Part shown: one piece after another, positions 1 to 50,384 of the stretch | How positions within the stretch are numbered: position 1 is the stretch's first letter | Layout of the letters: each line of letters starts with the position of its first letter | From: a virus | Lineage: Duplodnaviria; Caudoviricetes | Virus record (IMG/VR): IMGVR_UViG_3300030117_004591 | Coordinates: 1-50,384 of that record | DNA length: 50,384 nt | Reading direction: 5' to 3' (one strand) | Made by a program: the position numbers and the translations under genes | Notes under the pieces: model-generated | What the model was told of the DNA's origin: nothing | Seen by the model: the letters and a program-made list of their open reading frames with translations, nothing else | Databases searched by the model: none

Positions 1-254
1 AAGTTTGTAATTCTATTAACTAAGCGCTCTATTTTATCTACAGCACCCATTTCTCTCTCAGCTATTTGTTTTATCTTAGTTTGTATAGGTTCTGTATAAT
101 ACTCTAAAATACCATAAGGATCATCCTCTCTAGGTAATTTGGTTTTTTTGTCTATAACAGCCTGAAGCCCGTCATTCTGATATTCTATTAATTGCGTAAT
201 TTTTTGCTGTATTAAAACAAGGTCGGTAAAGTTTTTACCACCTTCTTCAGATGC
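1..254. repeat. Imperfect terminal direct repeat, copy 1 (circular overlap with 50131-50384)
   Basis: Positions 1-56 and 178-254 are identical to the window end. There are 18 substitutions within 57-177 and no indels. Confidence 0.97.
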
Positions 255-3200
255 ACCTATAATTTTGTTTATCTTCTCATTCATTTCCCCTAATTTGTGA
301 ACAGGGTCATCTATACCTTTTATATCGTCACCATTTAGTTTTTTAGTTAAAAGTTCTATATCAGCAAAAACTTCTCTTAAATCAGACCTAAGGCCTGTAG
401 CTTGTCCTGAAACTTTATCAAGGGCAGTTTGTGCTTTATTAAGAACATCTACCATAGCTTCGTTTCCTAAAAGCTTAAATGCATCTACATATTTTTCTAT
501 ATTAACAACATCTTTAAATAACTCTGCTTTATCTGACAATATGATACTTCCAGTCTCAGCTGTGCTACCAAGAGTATTTTTTATAGTTTTCATAGCTCTA
601 AGTAAGTCAGCTTCTTCCTGAGCAGATACTCCGCTTTCTCCTCTTCTAAGCTTAAATTCTTTAACCAAAACTTCTGCTTCAGGAATTTGCAGTTTACCAT
701 CTCTCCATATAGCTAATTGATTTTCTATTAAATAAGATGCTAGTCCTACAGCCCTTCTATCTAACCCTTGAGTCTCTAACATTCTTTCTATAAATAGTTC
801 TTTTACTATAGACAGCTCTCCTAATTTAGTTTTAGGCATAGTTCTAGTTATAGTTTTAAAATATTCAGCTACCTGATTTATTTTATTAGCATCTATTTGT
901 ATTGTAGATGGCTCTGTTTCCCTTGTAGGTCCAGCTTCTTTTCCTAGATGTACAGACCTCATACTAAATATAGACCTTAAGAAAGCCATAGATTCATCAA
1001 CTTTATCATTCTTAGCTTGCTGATTAGGGTCTTTAGAATCTTTTTCATAGCCTATTATTTTATAATCAGCTATATCCCTAGCATATCTTCCATTCTTTAG
1101 TAAGAACAGCTCATCTAACATTTTAGTCATATTGCTATCCTGAACATCAGCTGAAGAACCTTCTACTATTTTAAACAACCTGTCATTAGCTTCTACATCT
1201 CTAGCATATTCTAAAAAGTGAAGAATGCTATTATCATTAGCTTCTAATACAATGTTTTTATTTCCGAATTTTTTAGACATTATATCCATATACTTTTCTA
1301 TAACTTTAAACGTCTGTAAGTCAAACTCGCTATCACTTAATTTGCTATCTTTTTTTAAGACATCTAAGTCTTTTTGTTGAGTTTTAGTTCTTACTGTAAG
1401 TATATTTAATCTATCTAATGCTCTAATAACGTCATTATATATTGTAGCTTGCCCTAAATCTTGACCTTCTCTACCTCTTACTTCATAAGCAGACATATTG
1501 CCTTGCTCATCAATAGCTACCTCAAAACCAAACCTATCTCTAAGTTCTGTTAGCATCGCTTTATATATATCAATTACATCTTTTTGACCTTCTTTAGTTA
1601 TTTTAGGGAGAGTGCCCGCAAAACCTAAGTCTTTAATAAGAACATCACGAGTAGTACCTTCTCCTTTTTCAACTACTATATTATCTACTTTATCTGCTAT
1701 TCTATTTAAAGCTTCTCTTGACATGTTTTCTACTTTTATAGGAACATAATCGGGTCCAACTTCAGCTCTTTTTTGAGCATTATATAAAGATAAGAATTTA
1801 GCAACTCTTTTATGGTCGCTATGTTTAAAGTCCCCAACTCCTACAGCTGTAATATTGGGATCGTTTAATACTGAATCAAATGCTCTGACTATTTCAGGAC
1901 CTACTCTTCCAGAAGATATATAGTCTCCCATAGCTATAGTAGGGTCTAAAATTTCAATTGCAGTGATTTGATTCTTAATTACTTCAGGTGAAGACCCCAT
2001 TGTTTTTAAAGCTCTCTTATAAGGCCCATATTCGGCTAAATAAGCACTATTGCTCTGTCCTCCAAACACCGTACCATCTTTACCCCAATGACCTCTATGT
2101 CTTGTCATTAAAAGACTCATAAACAAGTGAGAGCCTAACTCTTGATCACTTAAAGTTTTCCATAGTCCAGTATTAAACATTTCCCAATTCATAGCAGTTA
2201 CACCTATAGCCATTCTAGGTAAGGAGTAAGTTATATCTTCTAAAAGCCTTCTACCGTGAAAACTTCTAAGTTCGCTTTCAACCTTTTTTCTAATCTTATT
2301 ATTAAGAATAACAAGCTCTTCTTTAGTCATTTTTTCAATACCTAAAGCTTTGTTTCCTCTAACATTATTTATAAAATCGTCTACACCGTTTATAGTTCTT
2401 TTACCGACATTCCAAGTAGCATGTCCAATAGCACTATGATTCCATAAATCTAATTTAGCTCCTCTAGCCATAACAATAGCTAAGTTCCCTAAATCTGTCT
2501 GGTCCATAGTATTGTAGTCTGTTTTTTTAAATCTATTAAACATACTACCAACACCATTTTTCCACGAATCTCTACCACCACCAGGTATAGCTCTAATTAA
2601 AGGAAAAGCTAGAGCCATTACAAAAGAATGGTTTAAATCGTCCATAGGCTTCATTTCTTCACCATTAGCCCAAGTTTTAAATCTATTAGCTACAAGAGTG
2701 TGTGTAGTCATCATCAACATGTCTTGTGCTGCCATACCAGTATATCTAGCAAAATTCTTTCTAATGGCCCCTGGCATAGCTCCTCCAACACCTCTTTCTA
2801 CTAAATCTGCAAAATCATTTATAAATCTTTTTCCTCCCGTCAAATCTTTTACAATTTGCCTACTTGCATTTTGCGCTACATCCTCACCTATTTCAATACC
2901 AGCTTTTTTATATGCATTTGTTACTGCAGCTCTTGTTATTAATTCCAACTGGTCCGCAGCTTCTACTCCTTTTGCCCCAGCTATATTAATTTCTCTTATC
3001 CAAGAAGATCCAATATCGCCTTTAACCGTCTTATCAACTTCTTTTTTAATACTTGTATTTAACTTATCTTTAGCTCTAGCGATATTTTTAGAAGTAGCGC
3101 CACCCCACATTTTAGAGGCTCTTTCTGTTGCCAATCTAGTAAAAGCATCAGCTTCTTTTCCATCTAATTCGCCTGTAGTTCTAGCGATATTTTTAGCTGT

Positions 3201-3563
3201 ATATTTTCCAATTTTTGTATTGCCAGCTATTCTAGCAGCTTTTCCAAGACCTTTAGCCATAAGCCCAAAAGGCCCAAAAGGACTAAATAAAGATGCACCT
3301 TCACCTAAAACCCATCCAGTTTTTGCCCAAGCGCTCATTTCTTCCCAAGGAGTATCATGTGTAGCTAACTCAGAAGCTCCCCATGTTATTCCAGATGCGT
3401 ATCCCTCAAATCCGCTTTCAAAGAAATCCCATAATCCACCTTGATCGATTTCTTCTGGTGGGCTTACATCTGGATACCAATAAAGATTTTGACCCCCTGG
3501 TCCTGGCCCTTTAAAACCACGATCCTGGGTATCTTGTAATATTTTATCTCTCCAATCGCTCAT
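1..3563 (-). CDS. N-terminal part (~1,171 aa) of a giant virion protein / putative virion RNA polymerase; continues across the circular junction into 44409-50180
   Basis: ATG at 3563 (MSDWRDKILQDTQDRGFKGPGPGGQNLYWYP) with AAGGA upstream. The frame runs off the left edge, so it is absent from the ORF track. The in-frame ATG at position 50 is the same codon as 50180 (MGAVDKIERL). Confidence 0.92.
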   Translation of the reverse strand, partial: MSDWRDKILQDTQDRGFKGPGPGGQNLYWYPDVSPPEEIDQGGLWDFFESGFEGYASGITWGASELATHDTPWEEMSAWAKTGWVLGEGASLFSPFGPFGLMAKGLGKAARIAGNTKIGKYTAKNIARTTGELDGKEADAFTRLATERASKMWGGATSKNIARAKDKLNTSIKKEVDKTVKGDIGSSWIREINIAGAKGVEAADQLELITRAAVTNAYKKAGIEIGEDVAQNASRQIVKDLTGGKRFINDFADLVERGVGGAMPGAIRKNFARYTGMAAQDMLMMTTHTLVANRFKTWANGEEMKPMDDLNHSFVMALAFPLIRAIPGGGRDSWKNGVGSMFNRFKKTDYNTMDQTDLGNLAIVMARGAKLDLWNHSAIGHATWNVGKRTINGVDDFINNVRGNKALGIEKMTKEELVILNNKIRKKVESELRSFHGRRLLEDITYSLPRMAIGVTAMNWEMFNTGLWKTLSDQELGSHLFMSLLMTRHRGHWGKDGTVFGGQSNSAYLAEYGPYKRALKTMGSSPEVIKNQITAIEILDPTIAMGDYISSGRVGPEIVRAFDSVLNDPNITAVGVGDFKHSDHKRVAKFLSLYNAQKRAEVGPDYVPIKVENMSREALNRIADKVDNIVVEKGEGTTRDVLIKDLGFAGTLPKITKEGQKDVIDIYKAMLTELRDRFGFEVAIDEQGNMSAYEVRGREGQDLGQATIYNDVIRALDRLNILTVRTKTQQKDLDVLKKDSKLSDSEFDLQTFKVIEKYMDIMSKKFGNKNIVLEANDNSILHFLEYARDVEANDRLFKIVEGSSADVQDSNMTKMLDELFLLKNGRYARDIADYKIIGYEKDSKDPNQQAKNDKVDESMAFLRSIFSMRSVHLGKEAGPTRETEPSTIQIDANKINQVAEYFKTITRTMPKTKLGELSIVKELFIERMLETQGLDRRAVGLASYLIENQLAIWRDGKLQIPEAEVLVKEFKLRRGESGVSAQEEADLLRAMKTIKNTLGSTAETGSIILSDKAELFKDVVNIEKYVDAFKLLGNEAMVDVLNKAQTALDKVSGQATGLRSDLREVFADIELLTKKLNGDDIKGIDDPVHKLGEMNEKINKIIGASEEGGKNFTDLVLIQQKITQLIEYQNDGLQAVIDKKTKLPREDDPYGILEYYTEPIQTKIKQIAEREMGAVDKIERLVNRITN

Positions 3564-3588: not shown

Positions 3589-5079
3589 TTACAGCATAGG
3601 GGGTGTTGCACCCATTTGCCAAATATTTTCTTCTAATTCTTTCCTAGCGTCTTCTCTTTCTTTTTCTTCTATCAACTCAGAAAGCGATTTATTTCCTGCT
3701 GTTTCAGTAAAATGTCCTGCGGCAAAGGTCTCAATATCTTCACCATCTATTGTGGTAGTAACGCTACCTATATTATTTCCACCATACTCATACCTAATTC
3801 CATCAACATTATAGTATCTCTTTGTTCCCAAATCGTCTGTTTTTACTCCAAGATTCTTTAGTCTTTCTTTTTGTCTGTATGGAGCATTAGGGTCATTAGG
3901 GTCTCCGTAAAAATCGTAATAAAAATCTTCATAATCTTTGTCAACTGGCCTTCCAGCGTTCCAATCAATAGAGATAAATTTAAGAATTTCTTTTTGCTCG
4001 TCAAAAGTATATTTATTCCTATTTTGATGAAAAACAGCGAATGCTTCAGTTATATCGCTAACTCCTTGTGAATCAAATTGCCATTCATCATAAATAGATT
4101 CGTAGAAGTTTGAATCTTTTTTACCTTCACTTAATAGTTGATTTTTTCTACCTATAGCCCTTTCAATATTTTGTATTAAAACTTTAAATTTAGGATTATA
4201 AGTAAGCAAGTCTCTAACTTCTTGACCACCTCTTTCATCAGGCCATTGATAAATATTAATTAGAAAAGATTCGGCATCAGGATCCATAGCCATAGCTGCT
4301 AAATGTTCTACAACTTTATCGCTAGGAACTGTCAGTTTTCCATCAATAGGATTTTGATATGAAAGATTAAGCTCAGCATGCTCTGACCAACTAATAGGAT
4401 CGGAATCTTTGTCAGCGGTTTGTTTTTGTCTTTCAAACATGCTTTGCAACATTGAATATTGAGCACTTATTGTTTCGTTTAGCCCTTCCTGCTTAATAAT
4501 AGCTCCAGTCATTTCAAGTCCCATTTTAGCTCTTTGCTCTTTTGGAACTTTATTAAAAACTGATATAGCTCCAGCCCCACCATACTTCCATCCTTTTCTA
4601 GCTATACCTTCTGCTAATAAATTCTGAAATTCCAAACCTTCTAAGATTTTATTATCACCAGCATATTCATCGTACATCATATCATAGTCTCTTTGCTGAG
4701 CACTAATATTTGATATAGCATCCTGAACATTAGCTATTCTTGTATCTAAAGTATCAATATTACTTTTCATAGTCTTAACATTAGCTTTGCCACCTTCTAA
4801 AATATCAGTACTTAATTGTTTTATGCCAGAACTGACATCTTGTTCGCTAAGGTTTGCAAGTTGCAATAAGCTTTTGTTCAAATTTTGAAGCTCTAGCTCT
4901 TTGTTTTTCATAATATCGAAAGTAAACTTTCTAGTATTTTGAGCTTCGTTTTCCTCTGCCTGAAGTTCTAATTTTATAACATCTAATGCATTTTGTGCTT
5001 CGTTTTGTTCTTTTTGCATTTCTAACTGCTTTTTTTCTTTCATAAATTGCAGTGCATATGCCATTAAGTCTCGACTCAT
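3589..5079 (-). CDS. Hypothetical protein, probable internal virion/ejection protein (coiled-coil N-terminus)
   Basis: 496-aa ORF between the tail gene and the giant virion gene; Q/E/K-rich helical N-terminus. Function inferred from synteny. Confidence 0.6.
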   Translation of the reverse strand: MSRDLMAYALQFMKEKKQLEMQKEQNEAQNALDVIKLELQAEENEAQNTRKFTFDIMKNKELELQNLNKSLLQLANLSEQDVSSGIKQLSTDILEGGKANVKTMKSNIDTLDTRIANVQDAISNISAQQRDYDMMYDEYAGDNKILEGLEFQNLLAEGIARKGWKYGGAGAISVFNKVPKEQRAKMGLEMTGAIIKQEGLNETISAQYSMLQSMFERQKQTADKDSDPISWSEHAELNLSYQNPIDGKLTVPSDKVVEHLAAMAMDPDAESFLINIYQWPDERGGQEVRDLLTYNPKFKVLIQNIERAIGRKNQLLSEGKKDSNFYESIYDEWQFDSQGVSDITEAFAVFHQNRNKYTFDEQKEILKFISIDWNAGRPVDKDYEDFYYDFYGDPNDPNAPYRQKERLKNLGVKTDDLGTKRYYNVDGIRYEYGGNNIGSVTTTIDGEDIETFAAGHFTETAGNKSLSELIEEKEREDARKELEENIWQMGATPPML

Positions 5080-39341: not shown

Positions 39342-39344
39342 AAT

Positions 39345-40934: not shown

Positions 40935-41079
40935 AGCCGAAGAAGTTGTTCCAATAATAGATTCTAAGAATCTTGTAAAATCTAGAGTAGATGAAATATG
41001 CTCAGATAGAGAAAAAGCTTTAGAAAGACTTTCAATTAAATTATTTGGGAGGGTCTATGCCAAGCAAGAGCAAAACTAA
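40849..41079 (+). CDS. Hypothetical coiled-coil protein (76 aa)
   Basis: GAGGAG RBS. Confidence 0.7.
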   Translation: MNQTQKTLQRALKEIHKLKSEISNLKKHKAEEVVPIIDSKNLVKSRVDEICSDREKALERLSIKLFGRVYAKQEQN

Positions 41080-41374: not shown

Positions 41375-41559
41375 AATATGGAAACAATATGGCAGGAATG
41401 ACATGGAGCAAAGGATATAAAGCCTTATGGCTGTATCCTATAGGTTTTGAAGTATTTAATAATCCTGATATGGATTTATTTGAAATAAGCTTCATAATAC
41501 AACCTCTTGCATTTTCATTCAACATAAGGTCTAATATTACACTATTTAGAAACGACTAA
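41371..41559 (+). CDS. Hypothetical protein (62 aa), last plus-strand gene
   Basis: AAGGAG RBS. Confidence 0.65.
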   Translation: MKYGNNMAGMTWSKGYKALWLYPIGFEVFNNPDMDLFEISFIIQPLAFSFNIRSNITLFRND

Positions 41560-41566
41560 AAAATAT

Positions 41567-41616
41567 GGCGTAGGTAGTTCCTATATTAATTTAAAACTAC
41601 TATCTGCGCCTATTTT
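41567..41616 (+). terminator. Stem-loop at the convergence of the two gene blocks
   Basis: 12-bp stem GGCGTAGGTAGT/ACTATCTGCGCC followed by TATTTT; an A-rich tract lies on the other side. Confidence 0.65.
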
Positions 41617-44390
41617 GAAAGCCCTTCTAATATTTTAAGAGAGTTTTCAAGGTTAGGATGAATCCCTTTTAATGTTTCTTTAGACCTTCCTTTTTTGAGA
41701 CTAGGTGTGTATCTCTTCTTTTTTGGTACTCCTGGCATATAACGTCTAGCTTCTTTAGTCCACCAAGAAGGATAAAGTTTAAATGTATGTGTAGCAAAAT
41801 CTCTTCCCAAACTACCTCTTTTATAAGAAGGATAATAGTTGTTTTTAATAGCACCCCACTCTGTACTTAATTGATAAGCTTTATATCTTTCTGTAAGTTC
41901 ATCTCCAGGATCTGCATAGTCTACATTACCAAATAAAATTTTATTTAAAGTTGAATTATCTATATCAATAATACCACCGACTATTCCAAAATATTTCAAC
42001 ATACCTAAAGTTGGACCTGTAAATTCAGACATAAGTCCAAATGTTCCTTTTTGAGGCTCATCGTATTCTGTGAGGTCAGAATATATTCTTTGAACTCTAT
42101 TTATAGATTCGTTTTCAATTATATTAAATAAATTAGTATTAAATATAACCCCAAATAAAGCTATTAAAGATGATGCGCCAGCATAACGTAATGCATATTG
42201 AATTTCTTCAGAATCCATCCCTTGTTTAGCTCTCATAGATTTAATAATACCTTTAAATGCCGAATAATGAGTTTCTGCTAACGACATAGGATAGTGAAGT
42301 AAGTGAAAAGCTACTTCAGACATTCCACCAGTAACTCCATGCTTTAATTTTTTTGCTATAACTCCACCACCTTCAAGTTGTTCTACGGTCTTCCACTGAC
42401 CTCTTACCATTTTAGATTTAGCATGAGCAGCATATTCATATGCAAATCCATTTACCATGTTTAATGCAAAATTCCTAGCAAACGCTTCAGATTTAGCCTC
42501 TCCGTATCCATTTTCTGTGAGCCATTTATATTTTTTATGAAAAGCCGTTCTAAACATCTGTCTACGCTGAAAGTTCTCAGTAATTCTATGTAGTATTAAA
42601 GCTTTGTCTAATAAAAAATTACCAGCATTACCAGCCACATCTCTAACTTTTGTCCAAGTAGTTTCATCCTGACCTTTAAACTCCATTTGACCTGTTTTTT
42701 CATTAAACCTAACTTCACCAAAATCTCTTTGGTTTTTTGTAATAATACCTTCTGCATAAAGCTCTGTAGCGGCAGTTTTTGTAAACTTAAACCCTGCTCT
42801 ATTCTCAACTCTTTCCATAACTTTAGCAAATTCTGGATCTGAGGTCATGTCACGAATTTGATCTGCACCAGCTTTAAAGCCTATTCTACTATAAAAGTGT
42901 ATTGCACTTAAAGCATTTTTAGTAGCACCTGTTATATTTAAACCCATAGTTCTTGCAGTCTGGAAAGCATTTAACGTTCTTACAGTATTATTAACCCATT
43001 CAGGTCTTACTGAAGTTCCTTGCGTAAAAACTGTATACTCTTCATCTATAAAGCGTTTCATTCCTTTTGCAAACTCTATACTAGTTGCAGCATTACCCAA
43101 GCCTTTCATAGCATTTAAGTAAGAGAGCTGAGTGTATATTAGCTTATTAAAAGATTGAGCTTGATTTCCATATTCAGATAAAACTAGTAAAGGGTCTTTT
43201 TCCCAGTAAAAATCTATATCAGACCTTTTTTTAGCATGTCTTGGAATCCAGTCCTTTTTAATAAGTATATTTTCCATAATACTTGTAAAATTGGACTCAG
43301 TGTTCCCTATTGCAGATTCAAAAGCTTTACTTAAATGAGCCTTAATTGCTGTCATGCTTTGAAAATCCATATGAGGAAAATATCCTTGATTAGAATCAGG
43401 GCGCATAGATATAGTCATGTCTTGAATAGAATCGTCTATTTTCTTAATAATACTAGCAGCTCTTTTATTTAAAAGCGAAGCTTTAGATACATCGCTAATT
43501 CCTGTAAATTTCATAGCTACTAATTTCTTAAGACCTTCGAGTCCCCTTACTTGCACTTTACCCATGTCATTTAGTAAAACTCTAGCAATTTTTACAGCTT
43601 CATATACTTGGCTTTGATATAGCATTTTTTTACCAAAATCAGGATTAGGCTTTCCATCTGGCAATACATCTCTATTATCAACCCAATCCTTTTTTCCTGC
43701 AGCATTAAAATCTTTTTGAGACATATGAACAAGCTTTAAGAAATCGCCAACATTACGCCCAGCATCAGTTTTTACAAATCCTTCCATTTGAGCTATAAAT
43801 TCGCCTTGCAATGTTATATTTTCTGGATCTTTTGCAAGACGTGCTCTTATTTCTTCTAGTCTAACTAATTCAGGACTTTTTCTTTTTAAATATTTACCCT
43901 TTACTCTTTCTAATGTAGGGTTTTTAAGCTCATGAGTATTAATATAGGCTTCTAGCATCAAATCTGCTATTTTTGCATTTGATTCTACTATTTTATTAGT
44001 TTGCACACGTTCATAGTCTATTATCTTGTTTAATTCTGTATAAAATCTTCTAGCTGTAGGGTCTTGCTTAGAGATACCTTCTGGAGTATACCATGCTAAA
44101 TTTTTAAATTTACCTTTTAAAGCATTAGCATAATCAGATATTTCTACTTTTGCTCTATTAAAATGGTGCTCAGCTAAAGGCGCATGCTGATTCCAAGGAA
44201 CCTCAAGTCTATACTCCATCAATCTTCCAAATTCTTGATAAGCTATAGCAGCTGATTCATCTGTAAATTTTCCATATTTATCAGCAAACCTATCTCTAAT
44301 AGATTTATGAGATATAAAGTTACCCCAAGCATCGTTTATTTTACCATCACGCCAAACTGCATCTTGACCTACATGATTACATAAAGCCAT
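41610..44390 (-). CDS. Large basic protein, probable internal virion/ejection protein
   Basis: 926 aa directly downstream of the giant gene. GYFPH and TARTMGLN...KN segments recall large ejection proteins, with hydrophobic segments near the C-terminus. Confidence 0.6.
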   Translation of the reverse strand: MALCNHVGQDAVWRDGKINDAWGNFISHKSIRDRFADKYGKFTDESAAIAYQEFGRLMEYRLEVPWNQHAPLAEHHFNRAKVEISDYANALKGKFKNLAWYTPEGISKQDPTARRFYTELNKIIDYERVQTNKIVESNAKIADLMLEAYINTHELKNPTLERVKGKYLKRKSPELVRLEEIRARLAKDPENITLQGEFIAQMEGFVKTDAGRNVGDFLKLVHMSQKDFNAAGKKDWVDNRDVLPDGKPNPDFGKKMLYQSQVYEAVKIARVLLNDMGKVQVRGLEGLKKLVAMKFTGISDVSKASLLNKRAASIIKKIDDSIQDMTISMRPDSNQGYFPHMDFQSMTAIKAHLSKAFESAIGNTESNFTSIMENILIKKDWIPRHAKKRSDIDFYWEKDPLLVLSEYGNQAQSFNKLIYTQLSYLNAMKGLGNAATSIEFAKGMKRFIDEEYTVFTQGTSVRPEWVNNTVRTLNAFQTARTMGLNITGATKNALSAIHFYSRIGFKAGADQIRDMTSDPEFAKVMERVENRAGFKFTKTAATELYAEGIITKNQRDFGEVRFNEKTGQMEFKGQDETTWTKVRDVAGNAGNFLLDKALILHRITENFQRRQMFRTAFHKKYKWLTENGYGEAKSEAFARNFALNMVNGFAYEYAAHAKSKMVRGQWKTVEQLEGGGVIAKKLKHGVTGGMSEVAFHLLHYPMSLAETHYSAFKGIIKSMRAKQGMDSEEIQYALRYAGASSLIALFGVIFNTNLFNIIENESINRVQRIYSDLTEYDEPQKGTFGLMSEFTGPTLGMLKYFGIVGGIIDIDNSTLNKILFGNVDYADPGDELTERYKAYQLSTEWGAIKNNYYPSYKRGSLGRDFATHTFKLYPSWWTKEARRYMPGVPKKKRYTPSLKKGRSKETLKGIHPNLENSLKILEGLSK

Positions 44391-44408: not shown

Positions 44409-47400
44409 TTAACATTTTCTACCAACTTCTCTTTGGTCTAATATATTCTCTACAACTTTTTTATTCTTATACTCTCTCCAGTCACGATAATTGTTTCTTT
44501 CAGTCTTACCAGTGCTAGGATCTATTGTATCTATTTTAACGTCTTTATTAACAATAATTTCTTTATTAAGAATATTCGTCAAATAAGGATGAGCGTAAAA
44601 AGTACCAGTCCATCTAGCTAAAAATTTCCAAGTACCTGCCATATCTCCCAATCTGTCAAAATTATAATTGTCAGTTTTATAGGCATCACGCTCAATTGGA
44701 CCTTTCATTTCTCTACCAGATGCAACAGATTCCCAATCTCTCATTGTTTTTTCAACCCAACTTCCCCTATTATTAGATTCTGCATAGTCAAAAACTGTTT
44801 TAATTAAATGATCGTCCATCTTATAAGAAGGCATTTCATAACCTTTTTGAATCTGAATTCTTGTAGGCGATATCTGTGGCTGTATTAAATAATTTAATAA
44901 GAAATCTACAGGTTCCCCTGGAATATTTTGTGTTACTTCAGGAGCCCATTTATCTAAAAACAATCTAATTTTTTCATACTCTATAGTTCTATCAATAAGA
45001 AAAGTTTCATCCAATAAAGTTCTTTGGTCAAACGCTCTATCTAATGTTTTTCTATAACCTCTAGATATAGAGTTTCTTAAATCTAAAGCATTTTGAACAA
45101 ACTGCTCTACTAAACTTTCGTCTTTAATAAATGCATTAGGTGATTTTTTATGACCACCATAAGTTACTTCAAATAAAGCATTAGCATATCTTAATTCTAC
45201 TGAGCTTGAGCTTGCTCTGCTTGTAGGGTTTGTATCGACTATATAAGTATAATTAGCATCATACCTTATTCTGTCTCCATATTTATAATATCCGACAAAT
45301 TCTAGCTGACTATTATCAACTCTAGCCCTTGTACCTTTCCAGTCTAAAACATGGTCGTATAAATTTCTAGGTTTTTGCGGAATACTGCCGTCAGCTTTTG
45401 CTAAAGGATCAGGCCTTACATCGCCTTTTACTTTAAAAACTGCAACTCTGTTTTTAGAATTTGGATTAGACCTTTTAAATGTTTGGTTTCCTAGATTTTT
45501 AGGCTTCCATATATTTTCTTTATTATTAGTCATGCCGCTTTTCTTTACAGATAAATCTTTAGCTATTTGAACATCTAATATATCCATTGCTTTTTGTAGA
45601 TTAATAGCTCTGTCTTGCAATTTTTGTATTTTATATGGGTCCATAAAGCCTTTATTAGCACTTCTAAAGCTAGAAATAGTTTGAAGTATACCCATATACT
45701 GTTTTTCTACAACATCCCTTAATATGCCTTTATGAATAGCTGATGAAAGCTCACCTTTTCTACCTACATGAGGGTTACCAAAAGACTCTATGTTAATATC
45801 ATCTAGTCTAGTAATATCTATTAGCCTACCTTCATCATTAAACATTCTAGCTTCTGCAACAAAAGACTCTATGTTTCTAACAAAATAACCTAAAGCATTA
45901 TTTATTTTTCGAGTAGGGTTTTTTATACCTTCAAAATTCTTTTCGTGAAAAGCGGGAGTTTTTACTAGTCCATCAAATATTTTACCAGAAATAGAAAAGT
46001 CAAAACCTGATGTCCCTGATACAATGTTGTCCCAATTAAAATCTCTATTTATAAATTTATCTCTTTTCCCATTTACAATATCTTTATATAGTTGATTTCT
46101 AGTGTCAGGCTTATTGTATGCTGCATAATTTTCTCCATAAAACATATCAACGTATTGTGTCACTAATTCATCTACGCCTGCTTTTTGAGCATCTGTTCCA
46201 TATTTTTTATAAAAAGATATGCGAGATTTAATGGCATCTGCTATATAAGCACTAGGGTCTGCAAAAAGTCTTTCCATTCTCGAATGGTCTTTTTTAAGCT
46301 CCCAAGGTTCAGGCTTTCTTGGTCCTACTTCATCGTAGGTACCCCCAAATACTTTATTAGGAGATCTTAAAGCTCTAAATATTGCATATACAATTTCTCT
46401 TTCAATAGCTCTAGTTCCTTTAAACTCGCTCATTCCAGATAAAATTGTTTTTTCATTACTAGTAACACCTTCTTGACCTAAATGCCTCATTAGATTAGCG
46501 TCACCTCTGCCTTCTCTTTGAGCTCTAAAATATTCTGCTCTCATACTAGATTCCATAATATCAAAAAGCAAAAAGTCTTTTAATTGTTGTGTTTTCTGAA
46601 ATACATCATGTATACCATCGTGTATATCTACTGAATTTTGGAACATATCATACATTTTATCTAAGAATGCCCAACTATCATTGTTTTTATTAGCTATATT
46701 TGAAAATTTCTTAAATAACTGCTCTCCTCTATAGCTAAGCTGCATTTCACTTGCCCAAGATAAAGCTGACCTTAGCCCTATAACTTGACCTATAATCATT
46801 TTTGAAGAATGAATTCTATTAGCATATTGATGGAATCCAGCCTGATGTGATTTTGCTGAAGAACCAGCTCTCATAACTTCTCTACCGTCAACAGTTTCTC
46901 TGTTTAATCCAAAAATATTGATAGACTCTAAGTTTAAATTGTTACTAGCATCCCACATTCTAAAGTCATCTTTCTTTCCAGCTTCTCTTAGAAATTGCCT
47001 CATAATGCTTCTTGGGTATCTAGTGTGAAAATAAAAATGGTCACCGTCATTATCTCTTTGAAGGACAGTTCTTAAATCATGATTATTTATTTCAGTTAAC
47101 CCGTTCATATTGTCAAGTATTCTTTCAATTTTAAGAATTACTTTATCGTGACCTATTGCTGGTATAGCGTTACCCATACCTGCTACCCATACTTTTTTCA
47201 AAATTCCATCTTTTACAGTGCTTGCTTTTAGACCAACTAAATTGTTAAGGCCTTTAGGATCTCTACTAGAAACTTTTTTACCTTGCATTAAATTGATAAC
47301 ATCATGCAGTGTGAGCTGATGATTTACAACTAAATTGTCCAATTCTTTAAGAGCAAGCTCTACTTTCATAAGTTCTTTTGCTGAAATTGCAAGATCTTTT

Positions 47401-50384
47401 TCTGTATACTGAACTTCCTTACCATTCTTATCTACACCTTTAATGTAAAGTTTATTTTTATTAGTGCCTAGCAGAGGGTCTGCATTAGAGGTTCTTAAAG
47501 CATCTATAGAAGGCACTTCTGCATAAAACTTACCATCGCTTCTATTAAACCCTATTATCACCTCAACTCCGCTATTTGCTTGATAGATAAAAGTTTCACC
47601 AGTAAGAGAGCTACTACCTCCTCTTCCCATACCTCTTTTTGCCGTATTAGCACCTATAGCAATACCTCCAAACTGAAGAGCAGTTCTATTTACTCTAGTA
47701 GGATTATCAGGGTCTCCACTTTTAATACCTCTAGGACCGTGTATTTCAGCATAAACAGGGACAGATAAATCTGATTTTACGTTAGGAGTAATAAAAAGGT
47801 CTTCTCCACCATTTATGTTTTTATTAGTCTTTAAATCATCATATTGTTTATTTCTCAAAGTTCTTCTAAGAGCTGTTTGTATAATAGGATTTTCAGGACT
47901 TGCCCCATAGGTAAATAACAACTTCATTCTGCCACTATCGCCAGTCTCCATTCGATTTCCCTTAGCTTCATTTATATCTAATAAAAATTTAGCCGTCAAA
48001 CCTCCATCTGTATGAAGCGTACCCCATTCAGCAGCTACATGAGTTAACTTTTCGTTTAATTTCATCCATTCAGCTGCACGGTTAACTGTTGTGCTACTTT
48101 GAAAATCAAAAACACTATGAGATATAGCGACACCTTTTTGATTGCTCGATGTAAAAGATACTCCTATACTTTCTATATCTAAATCAATCATGTTAGATTT
48201 TTCAGACTTTCCTGGAGCTTTTTTATTGGAAGATTTTCTTAAATCAACAGTCCAATCAGTTTTGTTTTTTATCTCTAGCGGGCTAACCTTATTAACCCCA
48301 TCGACACTAATGCCGTCAAATGTTTTAGCAGATTCTGTGCTAATAACCATATCAACATCTTTAGGCATATTTTTAGCAACCTCTGGATGATATATCATGA
48401 AGCCTTTACCAAGCATTTGATCGCCACCAGTTCCAAATATAATAGTTTTAGCGCCATTAGGATCTTCTAAAAAACTTCCAGTATGCACTTTGCCTTTAGA
48501 AGCCATAATTAACCTCATCATTCTTTCTGATACAAACTTAGCACCATCAAGCAAAGAGTTTTCAAGGCTTCTCAATTCATTATTATTTATAGAAAGCTCA
48601 TTTACCCTAACTATTCTTCTAAGCAAATCTCCTTTATTTTTTTCTAAACCTAGCTTTTCCAATACTAAGTTTTTTATACCTAGTGGGCCTGTTGTTTCAT
48701 TTTTACCACCTATTACTAAACTTCTAAACTTTCCACCCTTAGATTTACTTAATATAGATTTAGCCGCTTCTCTAACCTTAGGGTCTGGATGATCTCTTCT
48801 AGCCCATCTTATAACTTCTTTATTTAAAGGCTGAGTAGTTCCTCCATCTGAAAGAAAGCCTCTCTTAAACATATTGTTTTGAATTTTAGCAAGAATTTTT
48901 TCCCTACCTCTGCCAGCCATTTCTCCTATAAACTTATCAAATTCGCTTCGTTTTCCAGTATTAGTTAAATATGGAGCCATTAATTTTATGTTAACTATAT
49001 CTCTAACATTAGTAGTTTTTCCAATTAAATGACCAAATGCAGTTTCAAATGTAGTTGCTAGTCTAGATTTATTTTTAACATCTAAATCTTGGTATCTTTT
49101 TAATGTTCTATTATACCAAGCTGTAAACTCATTGTTTAATTTTGCAATATTGCCTTCTGTTGCTACAAATAAAATCTTATTTCTAGGAGAAAGGCGAACA
49201 TAAAAGAAGTGATTAGACAAAGCTCCGTCTGCACCAATATTTATAGAGTCTACCATTTCTTTAACAGCTTCCATTGTAAGTGATGGATCTTGTTCTTTTA
49301 AAGCTTTAAACAGGTCTTCTTTACTACCTCTTCTTATAGCGTCATTAATCCATCTTTGAATTTGATTAGGGTCTTGCACAGTGTCGATACTAACATTTCT
49401 AAGCTTATCTCCACCAGCATCTATACTCATAACATCATCTATAAAATGAACAGCAAATCCTTTCTTTTTAAAATAAGAAGTTCCAGGGCTATTTATATTA
49501 GAGACATTGCCTGTAAAATCCATTACAGACCTTTGCTCTCCTCCTGGAGCCACACCTTTAAATCTTACAGTGTTAATAGGAGCAGCATTTGCAATTGTAT
49601 TCATAAGTTCCATAGAATGAGTTAGCCTAAAATCCTCCCATTTTGATTTAAATTCAGAAGTATTTAACTTGCCATCAACTGTAGCATTTTCCTTAATTTT
49701 AGCCCTTATTATAGCCATTGCAGCAAAAGGACTTTTTGACAGTTCTGACCTAAAATGAGGATCTATTGCTCCTGTTGCATCTATAAGGTCATAATCTTTC
49801 AATATTTCTTGAATACTTTTATGATGCTCTTCTGTCTGATTAAGCTTATCCATAGCTTTCATCATTTCAACAGCTTCTCTATGAAAAGGATGTTTTTCAT
49901 TTCCTATAATAATTTCTTTGTCAATCTGCCTATCTATTGCTTCAACAACTTTTAAAGCATCTGATACAAGTCCATTGTTACCTAATTCTAAAATAATTTC
50001 AGATAAAACTTTTTGACCACCCTTGCTGTCTAATCCTTTAACTGAATTTGACAAATCTTTTGATAGGTTTTCAATAAGAATTTGAACTTGCGCTGGAGAA
50101 AGGCCTAGATTTTTTTGACCTTGAAATGTTAAGTTTGTAATTCTATTAACTAAGCGCTCTATTTTATCTACAGCACCCATTTCTCTTTCAGCTATTTGCT
50201 TTATCTTAGTCTGTATAGGTTCTGTATAATACTCTAAAATACCAAACGGATCATCTTCTCTAGGTGTATTAGTTTTTTTATCTATTACAGCTTCAAGTCC
50301 TTTATTGTGATATTCTATTAATTGCGTAATTTTTTGCTGTATTAAAACAAGGTCGGTAAAGTTTTTACCACCTTCTTCAGATGC
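44409..50384 (-). CDS. C-terminal part of the giant virion protein, containing putative two-barrel RNA polymerase catalytic motifs
   Basis: LLDGAKFVS (~48545), MLGKGFM (~48405) and QRDNDGDHF (DNDGD at 47040-47054). The frame stays open to the right edge. Confidence 0.85.
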   Translation of the reverse strand, partial: ASEEGGKNFTDLVLIQQKITQLIEYHNKGLEAVIDKKTNTPREDDPFGILEYYTEPIQTKIKQIAEREMGAVDKIERLVNRITNLTFQGQKNLGLSPAQVQILIENLSKDLSNSVKGLDSKGGQKVLSEIILELGNNGLVSDALKVVEAIDRQIDKEIIIGNEKHPFHREAVEMMKAMDKLNQTEEHHKSIQEILKDYDLIDATGAIDPHFRSELSKSPFAAMAIIRAKIKENATVDGKLNTSEFKSKWEDFRLTHSMELMNTIANAAPINTVRFKGVAPGGEQRSVMDFTGNVSNINSPGTSYFKKKGFAVHFIDDVMSIDAGGDKLRNVSIDTVQDPNQIQRWINDAIRRGSKEDLFKALKEQDPSLTMEAVKEMVDSINIGADGALSNHFFYVRLSPRNKILFVATEGNIAKLNNEFTAWYNRTLKRYQDLDVKNKSRLATTFETAFGHLIGKTTNVRDIVNIKLMAPYLTNTGKRSEFDKFIGEMAGRGREKILAKIQNNMFKRGFLSDGGTTQPLNKEVIRWARRDHPDPKVREAAKSILSKSKGGKFRSLVIGGKNETTGPLGIKNLVLEKLGLEKNKGDLLRRIVRVNELSINNNELRSLENSLLDGAKFVSERMMRLIMASKGKVHTGSFLEDPNGAKTIIFGTGGDQMLGKGFMIYHPEVAKNMPKDVDMVISTESAKTFDGISVDGVNKVSPLEIKNKTDWTVDLRKSSNKKAPGKSEKSNMIDLDIESIGVSFTSSNQKGVAISHSVFDFQSSTTVNRAAEWMKLNEKLTHVAAEWGTLHTDGGLTAKFLLDINEAKGNRMETGDSGRMKLLFTYGASPENPIIQTALRRTLRNKQYDDLKTNKNINGGEDLFITPNVKSDLSVPVYAEIHGPRGIKSGDPDNPTRVNRTALQFGGIAIGANTAKRGMGRGGSSSLTGETFIYQANSGVEVIIGFNRSDGKFYAEVPSIDALRTSNADPLLGTNKNKLYIKGVDKNGKEVQYTEKDLAISAKELMKVELALKELDNLVVNHQLTLHDVINLMQGKKVSSRDPKGLNNLVGLKASTVKDGILKKVWVAGMGNAIPAIGHDKVILKIERILDNMNGLTEINNHDLRTVLQRDNDGDHFYFHTRYPRSIMRQFLREAGKKDDFRMWDASNNLNLESINIFGLNRETVDGREVMRAGSSAKSHQAGFHQYANRIHSSKMIIGQVIGLRSALSWASEMQLSYRGEQLFKKFSNIANKNNDSWAFLDKMYDMFQNSVDIHDGIHDVFQKTQQLKDFLLFDIMESSMRAEYFRAQREGRGDANLMRHLGQEGVTSNEKTILSGMSEFKGTRAIEREIVYAIFRALRSPNKVFGGTYDEVGPRKPEPWELKKDHSRMERLFADPSAYIADAIKSRISFYKKYGTDAQKAGVDELVTQYVDMFYGENYAAYNKPDTRNQLYKDIVNGKRDKFINRDFNWDNIVSGTSGFDFSISGKIFDGLVKTPAFHEKNFEGIKNPTRKINNALGYFVRNIESFVAEARMFNDEGRLIDITRLDDINIESFGNPHVGRKGELSSAIHKGILRDVVEKQYMGILQTISSFRSANKGFMDPYKIQKLQDRAINLQKAMDILDVQIAKDLSVKKSGMTNNKENIWKPKNLGNQTFKRSNPNSKNRVAVFKVKGDVRPDPLAKADGSIPQKPRNLYDHVLDWKGTRARVDNSQLEFVGYYKYGDRIRYDANYTYIVDTNPTSRASSSSVELRYANALFEVTYGGHKKSPNAFIKDESLVEQFVQNALDLRNSISRGYRKTLDRAFDQRTLLDETFLIDRTIEYEKIRLFLDKWAPEVTQNIPGEPVDFLLNYLIQPQISPTRIQIQKGYEMPSYKMDDHLIKTVFDYAESNNRGSWVEKTMRDWESVASGREMKGPIERDAYKTDNYNFDRLGDMAGTWKFLARWTGTFYAHPYLTNILNKEIIVNKDVKIDTIDPSTGKTERNNYRDWREYKNKKVVENILDQREVGRKC
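50131..50384. repeat. Imperfect terminal direct repeat, copy 2
   Basis: Matches positions 1-254 with 18 substitutions. Confidence 0.97.

What the first reader, a model, noticed from the sequence alone, without database searches (positions are those of the whole stretch)
44409..50384. ~3,094-aa virion protein that looks like a divergent single-chain two-barrel RNA polymerase
Seen: joining 3563->51 with 50180->44409 gives one ORF of 1171+1923 = 3094 aa among the internal-virion genes. It carries, in order, LLDGAKFVS, MLGKGFM and VLQRDNDGDHFYFH. Established: this DG...KG...DxDGD order marks double-psi-barrel polymerases (cellular beta/beta', QDE-1-type RdRPs, YonO, and the virion RNAP of crAss-like phage phi14:2). 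Inference: this is a packaged, injected RNAP. The phage is only ~50 kb and uses strong Shine-Dalgarno sites, so it is unlike typical Bacteroidota-infecting crAss-like phages and may be a separate lineage using this strategy.
Basis: partly seen in the sequence, partly recalled or inferred. Interest (0 to 1): 0.9.

Follow-up and report, generated by a model that had tools for sequence, protein, structure and literature searches.

The report
Giant phage protein hides RNA polymerase
A 3,094-residue protein of an uncultured ~50-kb phage carries in its middle a predicted RNA polymerase core of the cellular "two-barrel" type. This suggests the phage brings its own transcription enzyme into the host, as crAss-like gut phages do, although its capsid genes place it in a different lineage.

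Summary
The window is a closed phage genome whose ends overlap by 254 bp, and the minus-strand ORF closes across that junction to 3,094 aa.

Across about 190 relatives clustered at 50% identity, the invariant residues are two lysines (K1749, K1763), Q2212 and the Asp triad D2214/D2216/D2218, which is intact in 78 of the 78 relatives that cover it.

No sequence library names the protein. [quoted passage not shown] QDE-1, plant RDR2 and Thermus-phage two-barrel RNAPs follow. A broadened family profile aligns DNDGD exactly on gp66's catalytic DFDID (hhalign E 3e-4 to 1e-3).

The phage is not a crassvirus by its markers: it has a SU10-type capsid protein, a P22-type portal, frequent Shine-Dalgarno sites and a ~50-kb genome.

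Packaging and injection are inferred only, from the gene's place at the end of the late structural operon next to a conserved 926-aa partner.

Verdict: a deeply divergent, unannotated family of probable virion two-barrel RNA polymerases in a separate marine phage lineage. It is a new variant of a known kind.

The parts
3..3563 (-). N-terminal part of the giant gene, residues 1-1187. The ATG is at 3563-3561 and an AAGGA Shine-Dalgarno-like site lies about 11 nt upstream. The region is predicted to be almost all alpha-helical, with no known fold.
   Evidence: AF2 model m639580c37123 has pLDDT 70.5 and pTM 0.46. Foldseek against PDB gave 0 matches at E<=0.001.
44409..50384 (-). C-terminal part of the giant gene. 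It covers residues 1104-3094 and the stop codon at 44409-44411. Its first 84 residues duplicate the overlap copy at window 3-254.
1..254 (.). Terminal overlap. It equals 50131-50384 with 18 mismatches in 254 positions and marks the closure point of the genome inside the giant gene.
   Evidence: IMG/VR classes the ends as 'linear', and CheckV completeness is 95.
45594..49076 (-). Predicted two-barrel polymerase core, residues 1540-2700 (1161 aa), modelled and searched as one unit.
   Evidence: Alignment A2. AF2 pLDDT 79.1 and pTM 0.79. Foldseek PDB top match 6vr4_A at E 4.4e-4. Foldseek BFVD gave 11 matches at E<=0.001, including crAss-like phage proteins.
48405..48548 (-). First-barrel motif block D1716-G-A-K ... 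N-G-A-K1749-T ... L-G-K1763. K1749 and K1763 are invariant and lie 14 residues apart, on model strands 208-215 and 220-228.
   Evidence: (K1749 in 71 of 71, K1763 in 72 of 72). crAss vRNAPs show a parallel pattern: D962, K1012 and K1027 are each kept in 60 of 60.
47040..47054 (-). Catalytic-loop candidate D2214-N-D2216-G-D2218. It occupies model residues 675-679, between helix 668-672 and strand 680-684.
   Evidence: (D, D and D each in 78 of 78). It aligns with gp66 D1361-F-D-I-D1365.
41610..44390 (-). 926-aa gene starting 18 nt downstream of the giant gene, the last gene of the minus-strand operon. It is a conserved partner of unknown fold.
   Evidence: A homologue lies next to the giant gene in 32 of 34 loci. 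No Pfam or PHROG match. No hhalign similarity to phi14:2 g065.
3589..5079 (-). 496-aa gene ending 25 nt upstream of the giant gene.
   Evidence: A homologue was found in 16 of 34 loci, with flanks limited to 10 kb. No family match.

Best explanation
The 3,094-aa protein is a single-chain polymerase of the two-barrel (double-psi beta-barrel) superfamily. It is a very distant homologue of the virion RNA polymerase gp66 of crAss-like phages.

**Catalytic module.** It lies at residues ~1650-2450. A first, beta-like barrel carries the invariant lysines K1749 and K1763. A connector follows, and then a second, beta'-like barrel whose loop D2214-x-D2216-G-D2218 would hold the catalytic Mg2+.

**Proposed life cycle.** The protein is made late with the structural proteins, packed into the capsid and ejected into the cell with the DNA. 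There it synthesises RNA from phage DNA independently of the host polymerase, so as to start expression of the plus-strand early/replication module.

**Other regions.** The all-helical N-terminal ~1,500 aa, the C-terminal ~400 aa and the conserved 926-aa neighbour would serve packaging, passage through the tail and envelope, or auto-inhibition.

**Shown:** the ORF, the conservation, the predicted fold and its ranking against solved structures, and the motif-to-motif alignment with gp66.

**Inferred:** catalysis, template, packaging, ejection and the choice of early genes.
For: 1. **Conservation.** Q2212 and the three Asp residues are kept in 24 of 24 full-length homologues down to 22% identity. 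They are also kept in 78 of the 78 representatives that cover the loop, out of 150 listed. K1749 is kept in 71 of 71 and K1763 in 72 of 72. Loop variants across the family are DNDGD, DFDVD, DHDGD, DYDGD, DFDAD and DFDGD. They therefore span the cellular-type and the crAss-type forms.

2. **Fold.** The AF2 model of residues 1540-2700 has pLDDT 79.1 and pTM 0.79. In Foldseek against 350,542 PDB chains the only match at E<=0.001 is 6vr4_A, the phi14:2 virion RNAP (E 4.4e-4, prob 0.99). Ranks 2-5 are QDE-1 (twice), maize RDR2 and phage P32 gp64 RNAP. Eight of the first 11 matches are two-barrel RNAPs. BFVD gives 11 matches at E<=0.001, including proteins of uncultured crAss-like phages cr118_1, cr272_1 and cr50_1 and Virus NIOZ-UU157.

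3. **Control.** The N-terminal 1187 aa of the same protein, run through the same pipeline, gives no match at E<=0.001 and no RNAP near the top.

4. **Sequence bridge.**
   - Fragment P0146 matches the new-family profile (E 1.2e-18 against the whole library).
   - It also matches a crAss vRNAP core profile (E 8.9e-6 among 151 sequences), with its DFDVD on both DNDGD and DFDID.
   - A 71-sequence family profile aligns ...IPxxGHD...QRDNDGDH... with gp66 1318-1371 ...RIPNQG...GSDFDIDK... at E 2.9e-4 against the crAss core profile and 1.1e-3 against the full-length crAss profile.
   - A collinear second hit falls on gp66 positions ~1116-1262 (E 8.5e-3). The paper gives the connector as residues 1095-1238.

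5. **Context.** The gene lies at the far end of the co-oriented TerS-TerL-portal-MCP operon, with 25-nt and 18-nt gaps to its neighbours. It is followed by a large conserved gene in 32 of 34 loci. phi14:2 has the same arrangement, g066 followed by g065.

6. **No other polymerase found.** Searches scanned 24 ORFs against PHROGs: the giant gene as two pieces plus 22 of the other 23 ORFs of >=150 aa. None matched a DNA or RNA polymerase family. The unscanned one, 2698-3444(+), lies antisense within the giant gene.

7. **Precedent.** gp66 is virion-borne and rifampicin-resistant, and it transcribes early genes (passages of bioRxiv 10.1101/2020.03.07.982082).
Against: - No sequence library recognises the protein: Pfam, PHROGs, and PDB by phmmer and by profile all gave nothing.
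- The 24-sequence profile shows no similarity to gp66 or to a 60-sequence crAss profile.
- The positive hhalign results have low probabilities (5-40%) and cover only ~54 columns.
- Global TM-scores to solved RNAPs are low: 0.29 to 6VR4, with rmsd >20 A.
- I could not inspect model coordinates. The two six-stranded barrels and the distance between the lysines and the Asp loop were therefore not verified directly.
- The first-barrel alignment to gp66 is not significant (E 0.2-0.34).
- The neighbours show no similarity to phi14:2 g065 or g067-g071.
- There is no proteomic, transcriptomic or biochemical evidence for packaging or activity, and no cultured relative: tblastn against 50,697 phage records found nothing.
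Confidence: 0.72

Rival explanations
1. It is a two-barrel RNA polymerase but is not packaged. It would act as the phage's intracellular (non-virion) transcriptase, like P23-45 gp64 or YonO.
For: The fold and motif evidence says nothing about location. Phage P32 gp64 and P74 gp62, both non-virion enzymes, are among the PDB matches. No virion data exist.
Against: The gene sits at the end of the late structural operon, not in the plus-strand early/replication module. At 3,094 aa it carries ~2,000 aa of extra conserved sequence, like the virion enzymes of crAss-like and N4-like phages. The known non-virion single-chain enzymes in the hit list are ~600 aa (target lengths). An enzyme made only late could not start the infection unless it is carried in.
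Confidence: 0.1
2. It is an internal or ejection protein that keeps a two-barrel fold but no longer polymerises. The fold would be exapted for DNA binding or channel formation.
For: Most of the protein (the N-terminal 1,500 aa) has no polymerase-like fold. gp66 itself is crystallised in a self-inhibited state with a non-Mg-binding active site (passages).
Against: The three aspartates, Q2212 and both lysines are invariant across representatives clustered at 50% identity. Pseudo-enzymes normally lose exactly such residues.
Confidence: 0.07
3. It is a two-barrel enzyme with another nucleotidyl-transfer role: an RNA-dependent RNA polymerase, a primase-like enzyme, or a PolD-like DNA polymerase replacing the replicase that the genome lacks.
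For: No DNA polymerase was recognised among the ORFs of >=150 aa scanned. QDE-1 and RDR2, which use RNA and ssDNA templates, are the second-best structural matches. The nearest named ESM Atlas cluster carries Pfam RdRP PF05183, but with a score of only 0.81 this is a lead, not evidence.
Against: No PolD chain appears among the 50 PDB matches shown. The best match is a DNA-dependent RNAP. The gene lies in the structural operon, whereas the primase-helicase, SSB and Erf genes lie in the opposite-strand module. A dsDNA phage has no obvious need for an RdRP.
Confidence: 0.07
4. It is not a polymerase at all. The motif would be a chance acidic loop, and the fold matches would be artefacts of a large mixed alpha/beta model.
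For: About one DxDxD is expected per protein of this size. Foldseek TM-scores to PDB are low.
Against: The top five PDB matches are all two-barrel RNAPs, and the control region gives none. BFVD matches reach E 1e-20 to unnamed proteins and 6e-8 to crAss-like proteins. The Asp loop aligns residue for residue on gp66's catalytic loop in two independent sequence tests. The family matches are collinear with gp66: first barrel, connector, second barrel.
Confidence: 0.04

Closest known systems
Virion RNA polymerase gp66 of crAss-like Cellulophaga phage phi14:2 (PDB 6VR4; bioRxiv 10.1101/2020.03.07.982082, passages read)
   Same: - Single giant chain with two barrels joined by a connector.
- It is the best structural match, and the Asp loops align.
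- Both families keep two invariant lysines 14-15 residues apart upstream of the Asp loop.
- The gene lies at the end of the structural operon and is followed by another large gene.
- Most of the chain has no recognisable fold.
   Different: - 3,094 aa against 2,180 aa, with about 750 more residues before the first barrel.
- The loop is D-N-D-G-D with the cellular-type glycine, where crAss vRNAPs have I (58) or V (2) in the 60 sampled.
- Ordinary profile searches fail.
- The phage has a ~50-kb genome, a SU10-type MCP, a P22-type portal and SD-led genes. phi14:2 has ~100 kb, a Crass_capsid MCP and other portal and MCP PHROG families.
- gp66's activity and packaging are experimentally shown. Here both are inferred.
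QDE-1 / RDR eukaryotic RNA-interference polymerases (PDB 5FSW, 7Y7P, 7W82, 7ROZ)
   Same: They are single-chain two-barrel polymerases and rank 2-4 and 7 among the PDB matches. Their D-x-D-G-D loop has glycine at the fourth position; I recall QDE-1's DYDGD from the literature and did not check it here. DYDGD occurs in 7 family representatives.
   Different: The matches are weaker (E 0.03-0.7). These are cellular enzymes of about 900-1400 aa with no virion role and no giant flanking regions.
Thermus phage P23-45 gp96 (tape-measure-fused virion RNAP) and gp64/P32 gp64/P74 gp62 (non-virion RNAP) (Nat Commun 2024, PMC10770324, passages read)
   Same: They are phage two-barrel single-chain RNAPs. 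gp96 is likewise buried in a giant virion protein. gp64-type chains appear at ranks 5, 8 and 11.
   Different: The matches are weak (E 0.3-1.2). Those phages are siphoviruses, and the fusion partner there is a tape-measure protein. No tape-measure-like gene is seen here.
Coliphage N4 vRNAP (Schitoviridae)
   Same: It is a functional analogue: a ~3,500-aa virion-carried polymerase of a podovirus, ejected with the DNA to transcribe early genes (abstracts in the listing).
   Different: N4 vRNAP is a T7-like right-hand polymerase, not a two-barrel enzyme (recalled). It appears only at rank 28 (E 0.43) for the N-terminal model, which is not significant.

Membership tests
Two-barrel (double-psi beta-barrel) RNA polymerase superfamily | Overall fold resembles solved two-barrel polymerases | tested here: met
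   The AF2 core model has pLDDT 79.1. Foldseek PDB rank 1 is 6vr4_A (E 4.4e-4), ranks 2-5 are QDE-1 twice, RDR2 and P32 gp64, and 8 of the first 11 matches are two-barrel RNAPs. BFVD matches to crAss-like proteins reach E 6e-8. The control region gives none.
Two-barrel (double-psi beta-barrel) RNA polymerase superfamily | Two six-stranded double-psi barrels facing one cleft, seen directly | tested here: inconclusive
   Only the DSSP string was available. It shows beta-rich blocks around the lysines (strands 179-182, 208-215, 220-228, 243-246, 252-254) and around the Asp loop (629-636, 647-654, 660-663, loop, 680-684). Coordinates could not be inspected.
Two-barrel (double-psi beta-barrel) RNA polymerase superfamily | Invariant DxDxD metal-binding loop in the beta'-like barrel | tested here: met
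   D2214, D2216 and D2218 are kept in 24 of 24 homologues and in 78 of 78 representatives covering the loop. The loop aligns on gp66 D1361/D1363/D1365.
Two-barrel (double-psi beta-barrel) RNA polymerase superfamily | Conserved basic residues (two lysines) in the beta-like barrel | tested here: met
   K1749 is kept in 71 of 71 and K1763 in 72 of 72. crAss vRNAPs show the same pattern, K1012 and K1027 in 60 of 60. Their equivalence to the two beta-subunit lysines is recalled and inferred, not aligned with significance (E 0.2-0.34).
Two-barrel (double-psi beta-barrel) RNA polymerase superfamily | Bridge helix and trigger loop after the second barrel | not tested
   Long helices follow the Asp loop in the model, for example 749-766 and 768-778. 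Without coordinates or residue-level structural alignments they could not be assigned.
Two-barrel (double-psi beta-barrel) RNA polymerase superfamily | Template-dependent RNA synthesis | not testable with these tools
   Needs biochemistry.
Crassvirales virion RNAP (gp66 orthologues) | Sequence similarity detectable by profile methods | tested here: inconclusive
   There was no hit with the 24-sequence profile. With a 71-sequence profile the only hits are weak and local, E 2.9e-4 to 8e-3 with probability 5-40%. One bridging fragment, P0146, matches both profiles.
Crassvirales virion RNAP (gp66 orthologues) | DFDxD loop with Ile or Val at the fourth position | tested here: not met
   The window has D-N-D-G-D. 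crAss vRNAPs have I in 58 and V in 2 of the 60 sampled. Some distant members of the new family do have DFDVD (14 representatives).
Crassvirales virion RNAP (gp66 orthologues) | Encoded by a phage with Crassvirales hallmark capsid, portal and terminase genes | tested here: not met
   The window's MCP matches Pfam SU10_MCP (5e-21) and its portal matches P22_portal (5e-55) and phrog_156. The phi14:2 MCP matches Crass_capsid (8e-200) and phrog_11589, and its portal matches phrog_6547. BLASTP of portal and MCP against phi14:2 is not significant.
Crassvirales virion RNAP (gp66 orthologues) | Gene at the distal end of the structural operon, followed by a large 'RNAP-associated' gene | tested here: met
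   Layout of the window. phi14:2 g066 followed by g065. The partner is conserved in 32 of 34 loci. The partners themselves show no detectable similarity.
Crassvirales virion RNAP (gp66 orthologues) | Presence in the virion and delivery into the host | not testable with these tools
   There is no cultured member and no proteomics.

The most novel reading that the evidence does not exclude
A marine phage lineage with ~50-60-kb genomes, outside Crassvirales by capsid, portal and terminase, universally carries a ~3,000-aa virion polymerase. The lineage comprises at least ~190 protein clusters at 50% identity, and its sampled public members are labelled 'hypothetical protein' or unnamed.

The catalytic loop of this family runs continuously from the cellular and QDE-1 type (D[FYN]DGD) to the crAss type (DFDVDK). 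If so, the injected two-barrel transcriptase is an old, mobile module shared among unrelated podovirus-like phages rather than a crassvirus invention.

This glycine-retaining family would then be a better model than gp66 for an active-conformation phage two-barrel enzyme. It would also be a better candidate than crAss-like phages for the phage source proposed for eukaryotic RNAi polymerases.
Probability: 0.45. Interest if true: 0.78.

Novelty: new variant of a known kind. Interest (0 to 1): 0.66.

Why it matters
Virion-carried two-barrel RNA polymerases are experimentally known from crAss-like phages and from one Thermus siphovirus. This finding adds a large, unannotated family in small-genome, apparently marine phages with a different capsid lineage, whose genes use Shine-Dalgarno sites.

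Three consequences follow:
- 'Bring your own cellular-type polymerase' would be a more widespread infection strategy than the literature I could search suggests.
- The family offers a polymerase core with the canonical DxDGD loop, whereas gp66's DFDID loop was crystallised in a state that cannot bind Mg.
- The family supplies intermediate sequences that tie crAss vRNAPs to the rest of the superfamily at the sequence level.

In practice, the ~3,000-aa 'hypothetical proteins' in ocean viromes could now be annotated.

Tried and rejected
**Sequence libraries (nothing found)**
- Pfam and PHROGs on both halves of the protein and on four neighbours gave nothing significant.
- Pfam on all 24 members of the core alignment at E<=10 gave no polymerase family, and no family was hit by more than one member.
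- PDB by phmmer and by a 24-sequence full-length profile gave only coiled-coil noise. RPC1 appeared at E 1.4, which I do not count.
- tblastn of the C-terminal 1991 aa against 50,697 phage records found no match.
- A scan of 185,579 species genomes for relatives found none, so it gives no prophage or host clue.

**Comparisons with crAss-like phages (negative)**
- hhalign of the 24-sequence core profile against gp66 alone gave E 0.61, and against a 60-sequence crAss core profile E 0.38.
- The A2 HMM against 60 crAss vRNAPs gave no hit.
- BLASTP of the window's portal and MCP against those of phi14:2 was not significant.
- hhalign of the 926-aa, 496-aa and 1127-aa neighbour families against phi14:2 g065 and g067-g071 was negative throughout (E 0.13-0.84). 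The 1127-aa 'family' held only one sequence.

**Other**
- The N-terminal 1187 aa was folded (pLDDT 70.5, pTM 0.46) and searched against PDB. Only generic helical-repeat matches came back, none at E<=0.001.
- A promoter idea: the 12-mer AATTAATATAGG with up to 2 mismatches is not enriched (24 found against 20 expected), although its 3 exact copies are. It is absent from the 38 loci.
- The sigma-70-like and terminator scans were at or below shuffle expectation.
- No tRNA gene and no Rfam family were found.
- ESM Atlas gave only a weak lead, a viral RdRP PF05183 cluster with score 0.81.
- Earlier findings by place and by sequence returned nothing.

**Literature**
- Searches listed no paper on small-genome, non-crAss phages with a two-barrel virion RNAP. 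The library lacks most subscription journals.
- The supplements of the gp66 paper and Yutin et al. 2018 were not seen, so prior mention cannot be excluded.
Full report
**1. The observation**

The window is a whole IMG/VR virus record of 50,384 bases with a CheckV completeness of 95. One search lists two open-ended minus-strand frames:
- 3..3563 (1187 aa), which runs off the window start.
- 44409..50384 (1991 aa), open at the window end.

Window 1-254 repeats 50131-50384 with 18 mismatches in 254 positions. The contig therefore closes on itself with an imperfect overlap. This is probably population microdiversity, and IMG/VR accordingly calls the ends 'linear'.

Any of the three equivalent joins gives one frame of 3094 codons and a single terminal stop. 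The join is real for two reasons:
- A 3094-aa database protein from a 49,435-nt contig is 100% identical over the queried stretch, and 24 of the 25 proteins found are 2957-3097 aa.
- 29 of 34 IMG/VR loci carry an uninterrupted 2922-3175-aa frame. The other five are cut by contig or locus ends.

The three motifs lie at residues 1714, 1760 and 2210. By composition about one DxDxD and about 0.09 DxDGD are expected in such a protein, and exactly one is seen. The motif on its own is therefore unremarkable; its conservation is what counts.

**2. Conservation**

In 24 full-length homologues (22-82% identity) D1716, G1717, K1719, L1761-G1764 and Q2212-H2219 are invariant.

I built a profile of the core (residues 1540-2700) from the window and 23 IMG/VR loci (alignment A2). 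It found 191 proteins at E<=0.001 among 1.84 billion representatives clustered at 50% identity. The complete ones are 2.8-3.3 kaa long.

I aligned the 150 listed representatives to the profile:

| Position | Result |
|---|---|
| Asp loop (78 cover it) | D, D and D each in 78 of 78 |
| Q2212 | 78 of 78 |
| Fourth loop position | G 52, V 15, A 6, M 3, I 1, T 1 |
| K1763 (LGKG) | 72 of 72 |
| D1716 | D 53, N 16 of 69 |
| G1717 | 54 of 69 |
| K1719 | 20 of 68 |

Loop variants include DNDGD (21), DFDVD (14), DHDGD (7), DYDGD (7), DFDAD (5) and DFDGD (3).

**3. What sequence libraries say**

They say nothing:
- Pfam and PHROGs do not match either half, and Pfam matches none of the 24 core sequences meaningfully.
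- PDB by phmmer and by profile gives noise.
- tblastn against 50,697 deposited phage genomes finds no relative, and a scan of 185,579 species genomes finds none.
- The public labels of ten distant clusters are 'hypothetical protein' or empty. One is attributed to a Candidatus Pacearchaeota MAG. Their longest contigs are 13-61 kb, and several members come from Tara Oceans small-fraction samples.

**4. Structure**

AlphaFold2 on alignment A2 gave a confident model of residues 1540-2700: mean pLDDT 79.1 and pTM 0.79.

In the model:
- K1749 and K1763 sit on adjacent strands (model 208-215 and 220-228).
- The Asp loop (model 675-679) lies between a short helix (668-672) and a strand (680-684), after three strands (629-636, 647-654, 660-663).

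From memory, this is the layout around NADFDGD in beta'.

Foldseek against 350,542 PDB chains gave these results:
- One match at E<=0.001: 6vr4_A, the virion RNAP of crAss-like phage phi14:2 (E 4.4e-4, prob 0.99).
- Next come QDE-1 twice, maize RDR2 and phage P32 gp64 RNAP.
- Eight of the first eleven matches are two-barrel RNAPs.
- No PolD chain appears in the 50 matches shown.
- Global TM-scores are low (0.29 to 6VR4), as expected for multi-domain giants at ~10% identity.

Against BFVD there are 11 matches at E<=0.001:
- The two best are unnamed proteins (A0A516L9L2_2, E 1.4e-20, TM 0.56; A0A516M3R5_2, E 1.3e-17).
- Pieces of proteins of uncultured crAss-like phages follow (cr118_1 at 6e-8, cr272_1, cr50_1), then Virus NIOZ-UU157.
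- phi14:2's own entry is at E 0.47.

As a control, I folded the N-terminal 1187 aa of the same protein in the same way (pLDDT 70.5, pTM 0.46). It returned only generic helical-repeat proteins and nothing at E<=0.001.

I could not obtain model coordinates, so the barrels themselves were not inspected.

**5. A sequence bridge to gp66**

The 24-sequence profile does not see gp66 or a 60-sequence crAss vRNAP profile. That crAss profile was built from every second one of the 120 proteins listed.

Two things do link them.

First, fragment P0146 matches both profiles:
- It matches the new-family profile at E 1.2e-18 for the whole library.
- It also matches the crAss core profile at E 8.9e-6 among 151 sequences.
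- Its DFDVD lies on DNDGD in one alignment and on DFDID in the other.

Second, a family profile broadened to 71 sequences aligns window '...AIPAIGHDK...LQRDNDGDHFYFH' with gp66 1318-1371 '...YRIPNQG...TGSDFDIDKMYVM':
- E is 2.9e-4 against the crAss core profile.
- E is 1.1e-3 against the full-length 2140-column crAss profile.
- A second, collinear match (E 8.5e-3) falls on gp66 positions ~1116-1262. The paper gives gp66's connector as residues 1095-1238.

The first-barrel match is collinear too but not significant (E 0.2-0.34). It nevertheless pairs the family's S-x-[DN]-[GA]-x-x-[YFW] with crAss N-x-T-D-A-Q-A-W. Distant family members actually read NAQSY, NAQTW or DAQTW there.

crAss vRNAPs also keep two invariant lysines, K1012 and K1027, in 60 of 60 sequences. 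They lie 15 residues apart, against 14 in the new family. hhalign probabilities are low (5-40%), so this is supporting evidence and not stand-alone proof.

**6. Genome context**

On the minus strand the order is as follows:

| Gene | Coordinates | Note |
|---|---|---|
| Small terminase | 27640-28392 | |
| Large terminase | 23950-25503 | |
| Portal | 20764-23100 | Pfam P22_portal, 5e-55 |
| Capsid protein | 18183-19724 | Pfam SU10_MCP, 5e-21 |
| Metallophosphoesterase | 12702-13478 | |
| Three large genes without any family | 7903-11286, 5100-7724, 3589-5079 | |
| The giant gene | 3563 across the junction to 44409 | |
| 926-aa gene | 41610-44390 | last gene of the operon |

The plus-strand block (29.0-41.6 kb) holds Erf, SSB, a primase-helicase and a DUF932 protein. 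Searches scanned 24 ORFs against PHROGs: the giant gene as two pieces plus 22 of the other 23 ORFs of >=150 aa. None matches a DNA or RNA polymerase family. The one not scanned, 2698-3444(+), lies antisense within the giant gene.

The giant gene is separated from its neighbours by only 25 and 18 nt. The 926-aa gene accompanies it in 32 of 34 loci, the 1127-aa gene in 25 and the 496-aa gene in 16 (flanks were limited to 10 kb).

phi14:2 has the same broad order: terminase, portal, MCP..., phosphoesterase..., large virion proteins, g066 vRNAP, g065 'RNAP-associated protein'. Its components, however, belong to other families:
- Its MCP is Pfam Crass_capsid (8e-200) and phrog_11589, and its portal is phrog_6547.
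- BLASTP and hhalign comparisons of portal, MCP and the neighbours with the window's genes are all negative.

The window's terminase is only 24-27% identical to those of assorted ~40-50-kb phages. Its MCP finds one weak tblastn match.

Shine-Dalgarno-like sites precede 33 of 44 candidate starts, against 8.6% of random positions. From general knowledge, this is atypical for phages of Bacteroidota. The host remains unknown.

**7. Mechanism proposed**

Shown:
- A conserved giant ORF.
- A confidently predicted core whose nearest solved relatives are single-chain two-barrel RNAPs.
- An invariant Asp triad that aligns on gp66's catalytic triad.
- Two invariant lysines upstream.
- A late-operon position.

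Inferred, with about 0.7 overall confidence:
- The protein is made late, packaged and ejected with the DNA.
- Its core then performs Mg-dependent RNA synthesis on phage DNA, independently of the host RNAP, to launch the early module.
- The helical N-terminal half, the C-terminal region and the 926-aa partner serve packaging, transit or auto-inhibition.

This follows what was demonstrated for gp66: it is virion-borne and rifampicin-resistant, transcribes early genes, prefers single-stranded templates and has a cleft-blocking domain (passages).

The rivals are a non-packaged transcriptase, a non-catalytic exapted fold, another nucleotidyl-transfer role, and a chance motif. They are listed with their evidence in the Rival explanations section.

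**8. Comparison and novelty**

It works like, and is distantly homologous to, the crAss-like vRNAP. I do not file it as a gp66 orthologue for three reasons:
- The loop type differs (Gly instead of Ile/Val).
- Ordinary profile similarity is absent.
- The Crassvirales hallmark genes fail the test.

It meets the testable defining features of the two-barrel superfamily.

Four literature searches listed no description of such small-genome, non-crAss phages. That claim is limited by the library and by the unseen supplements.

Together the two findings suggest several undescribed lineages. I rate this a new variant of a known kind, with interest 0.66.

Noticed in passing
window 28985-29008 (+) and 41579-41602 (-); also 37685-37696 (+): A 24-nt inverted repeat (23 of 24 complementary) sits in the only two strand-switch regions and brackets the plus-strand early/replication module. 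Its core 12-mer AATTAATATAGG occurs 3 times exactly, against 0.05 expected. The left copy overlaps the SD of the first plus-strand gene. It could be a promoter, a terminator or a protein-binding site. It is absent from the 38 fetched loci.
   Followed up: partly
window 1-254 vs 50131-50384: The end overlap carries 18 mismatches (7%), nearly all within positions 57-177. The contig ends therefore seem to come from two co-occurring variants of the phage, which is why the record is classed as linear although it closes.
   Followed up: yes
window 28612-29018: A ~400-nt stretch with no ORF of 50 aa or more lies between the divergent late and early modules. It contains a palindromic stretch (28925-28976) and is a candidate origin or early control region.
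   Followed up: no
window 5100-7724 (-): This 874-aa gene, two genes upstream of the giant gene, has weak endolysin-like PHROG matches (phrog_1493 at E 0.0024, residues 382-423). It has no BLASTP counterpart in any of the 34 related loci, unlike its neighbours. It may be a variable, wall-degrading or host-specific virion protein.
   Followed up: no
window 13639-14130 (-): This 163-aa ORF has a Peptidase_S74 'chaperone of endosialidase' domain at its C-terminus (Pfam 5.5e-6). PHROG hits to tail-fibre and ejection proteins cover only that end. It looks like an intramolecular-chaperone module without an obvious fibre body.
   Followed up: no
window 29000-41600 (+): The replication module has Erf, SSB, a primase-DnaB-like helicase fusion and a DUF932 protein. 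No DNA polymerase was recognised among the ORFs of >=150 aa scanned.
   Followed up: partly
protein P0315 (cluster of P0087): One member of the giant-protein family is deposited in NCBI as a hypothetical protein of a 'Candidatus Pacearchaeota archaeon' MAG, on an ~12-kb contig. It is probably a phage contig binned into an archaeal MAG.
   Followed up: no
giant protein residues 1-1187 (window 3-3563, -): The N-terminal third is predicted to be almost entirely alpha-helical and has no fold match. It contains two conserved, mildly hydrophobic Gly/Pro-rich stretches (residues ~85-103 and ~310-328, including P95, F320 and P321, invariant in both family alignments). These might interact with membranes during ejection.
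   Followed up: partly
BFVD entries A0A516L9L2_2 and A0A516M3R5_2: Two unnamed viral proteins, each a ~1,450-aa piece of a longer chain, match the core model far better than any crAss-like protein does (E 1e-20 and 1e-17, TM 0.56 and 0.49, ~11% identity). They are probably further members or sister families of this polymerase group.
   Followed up: no
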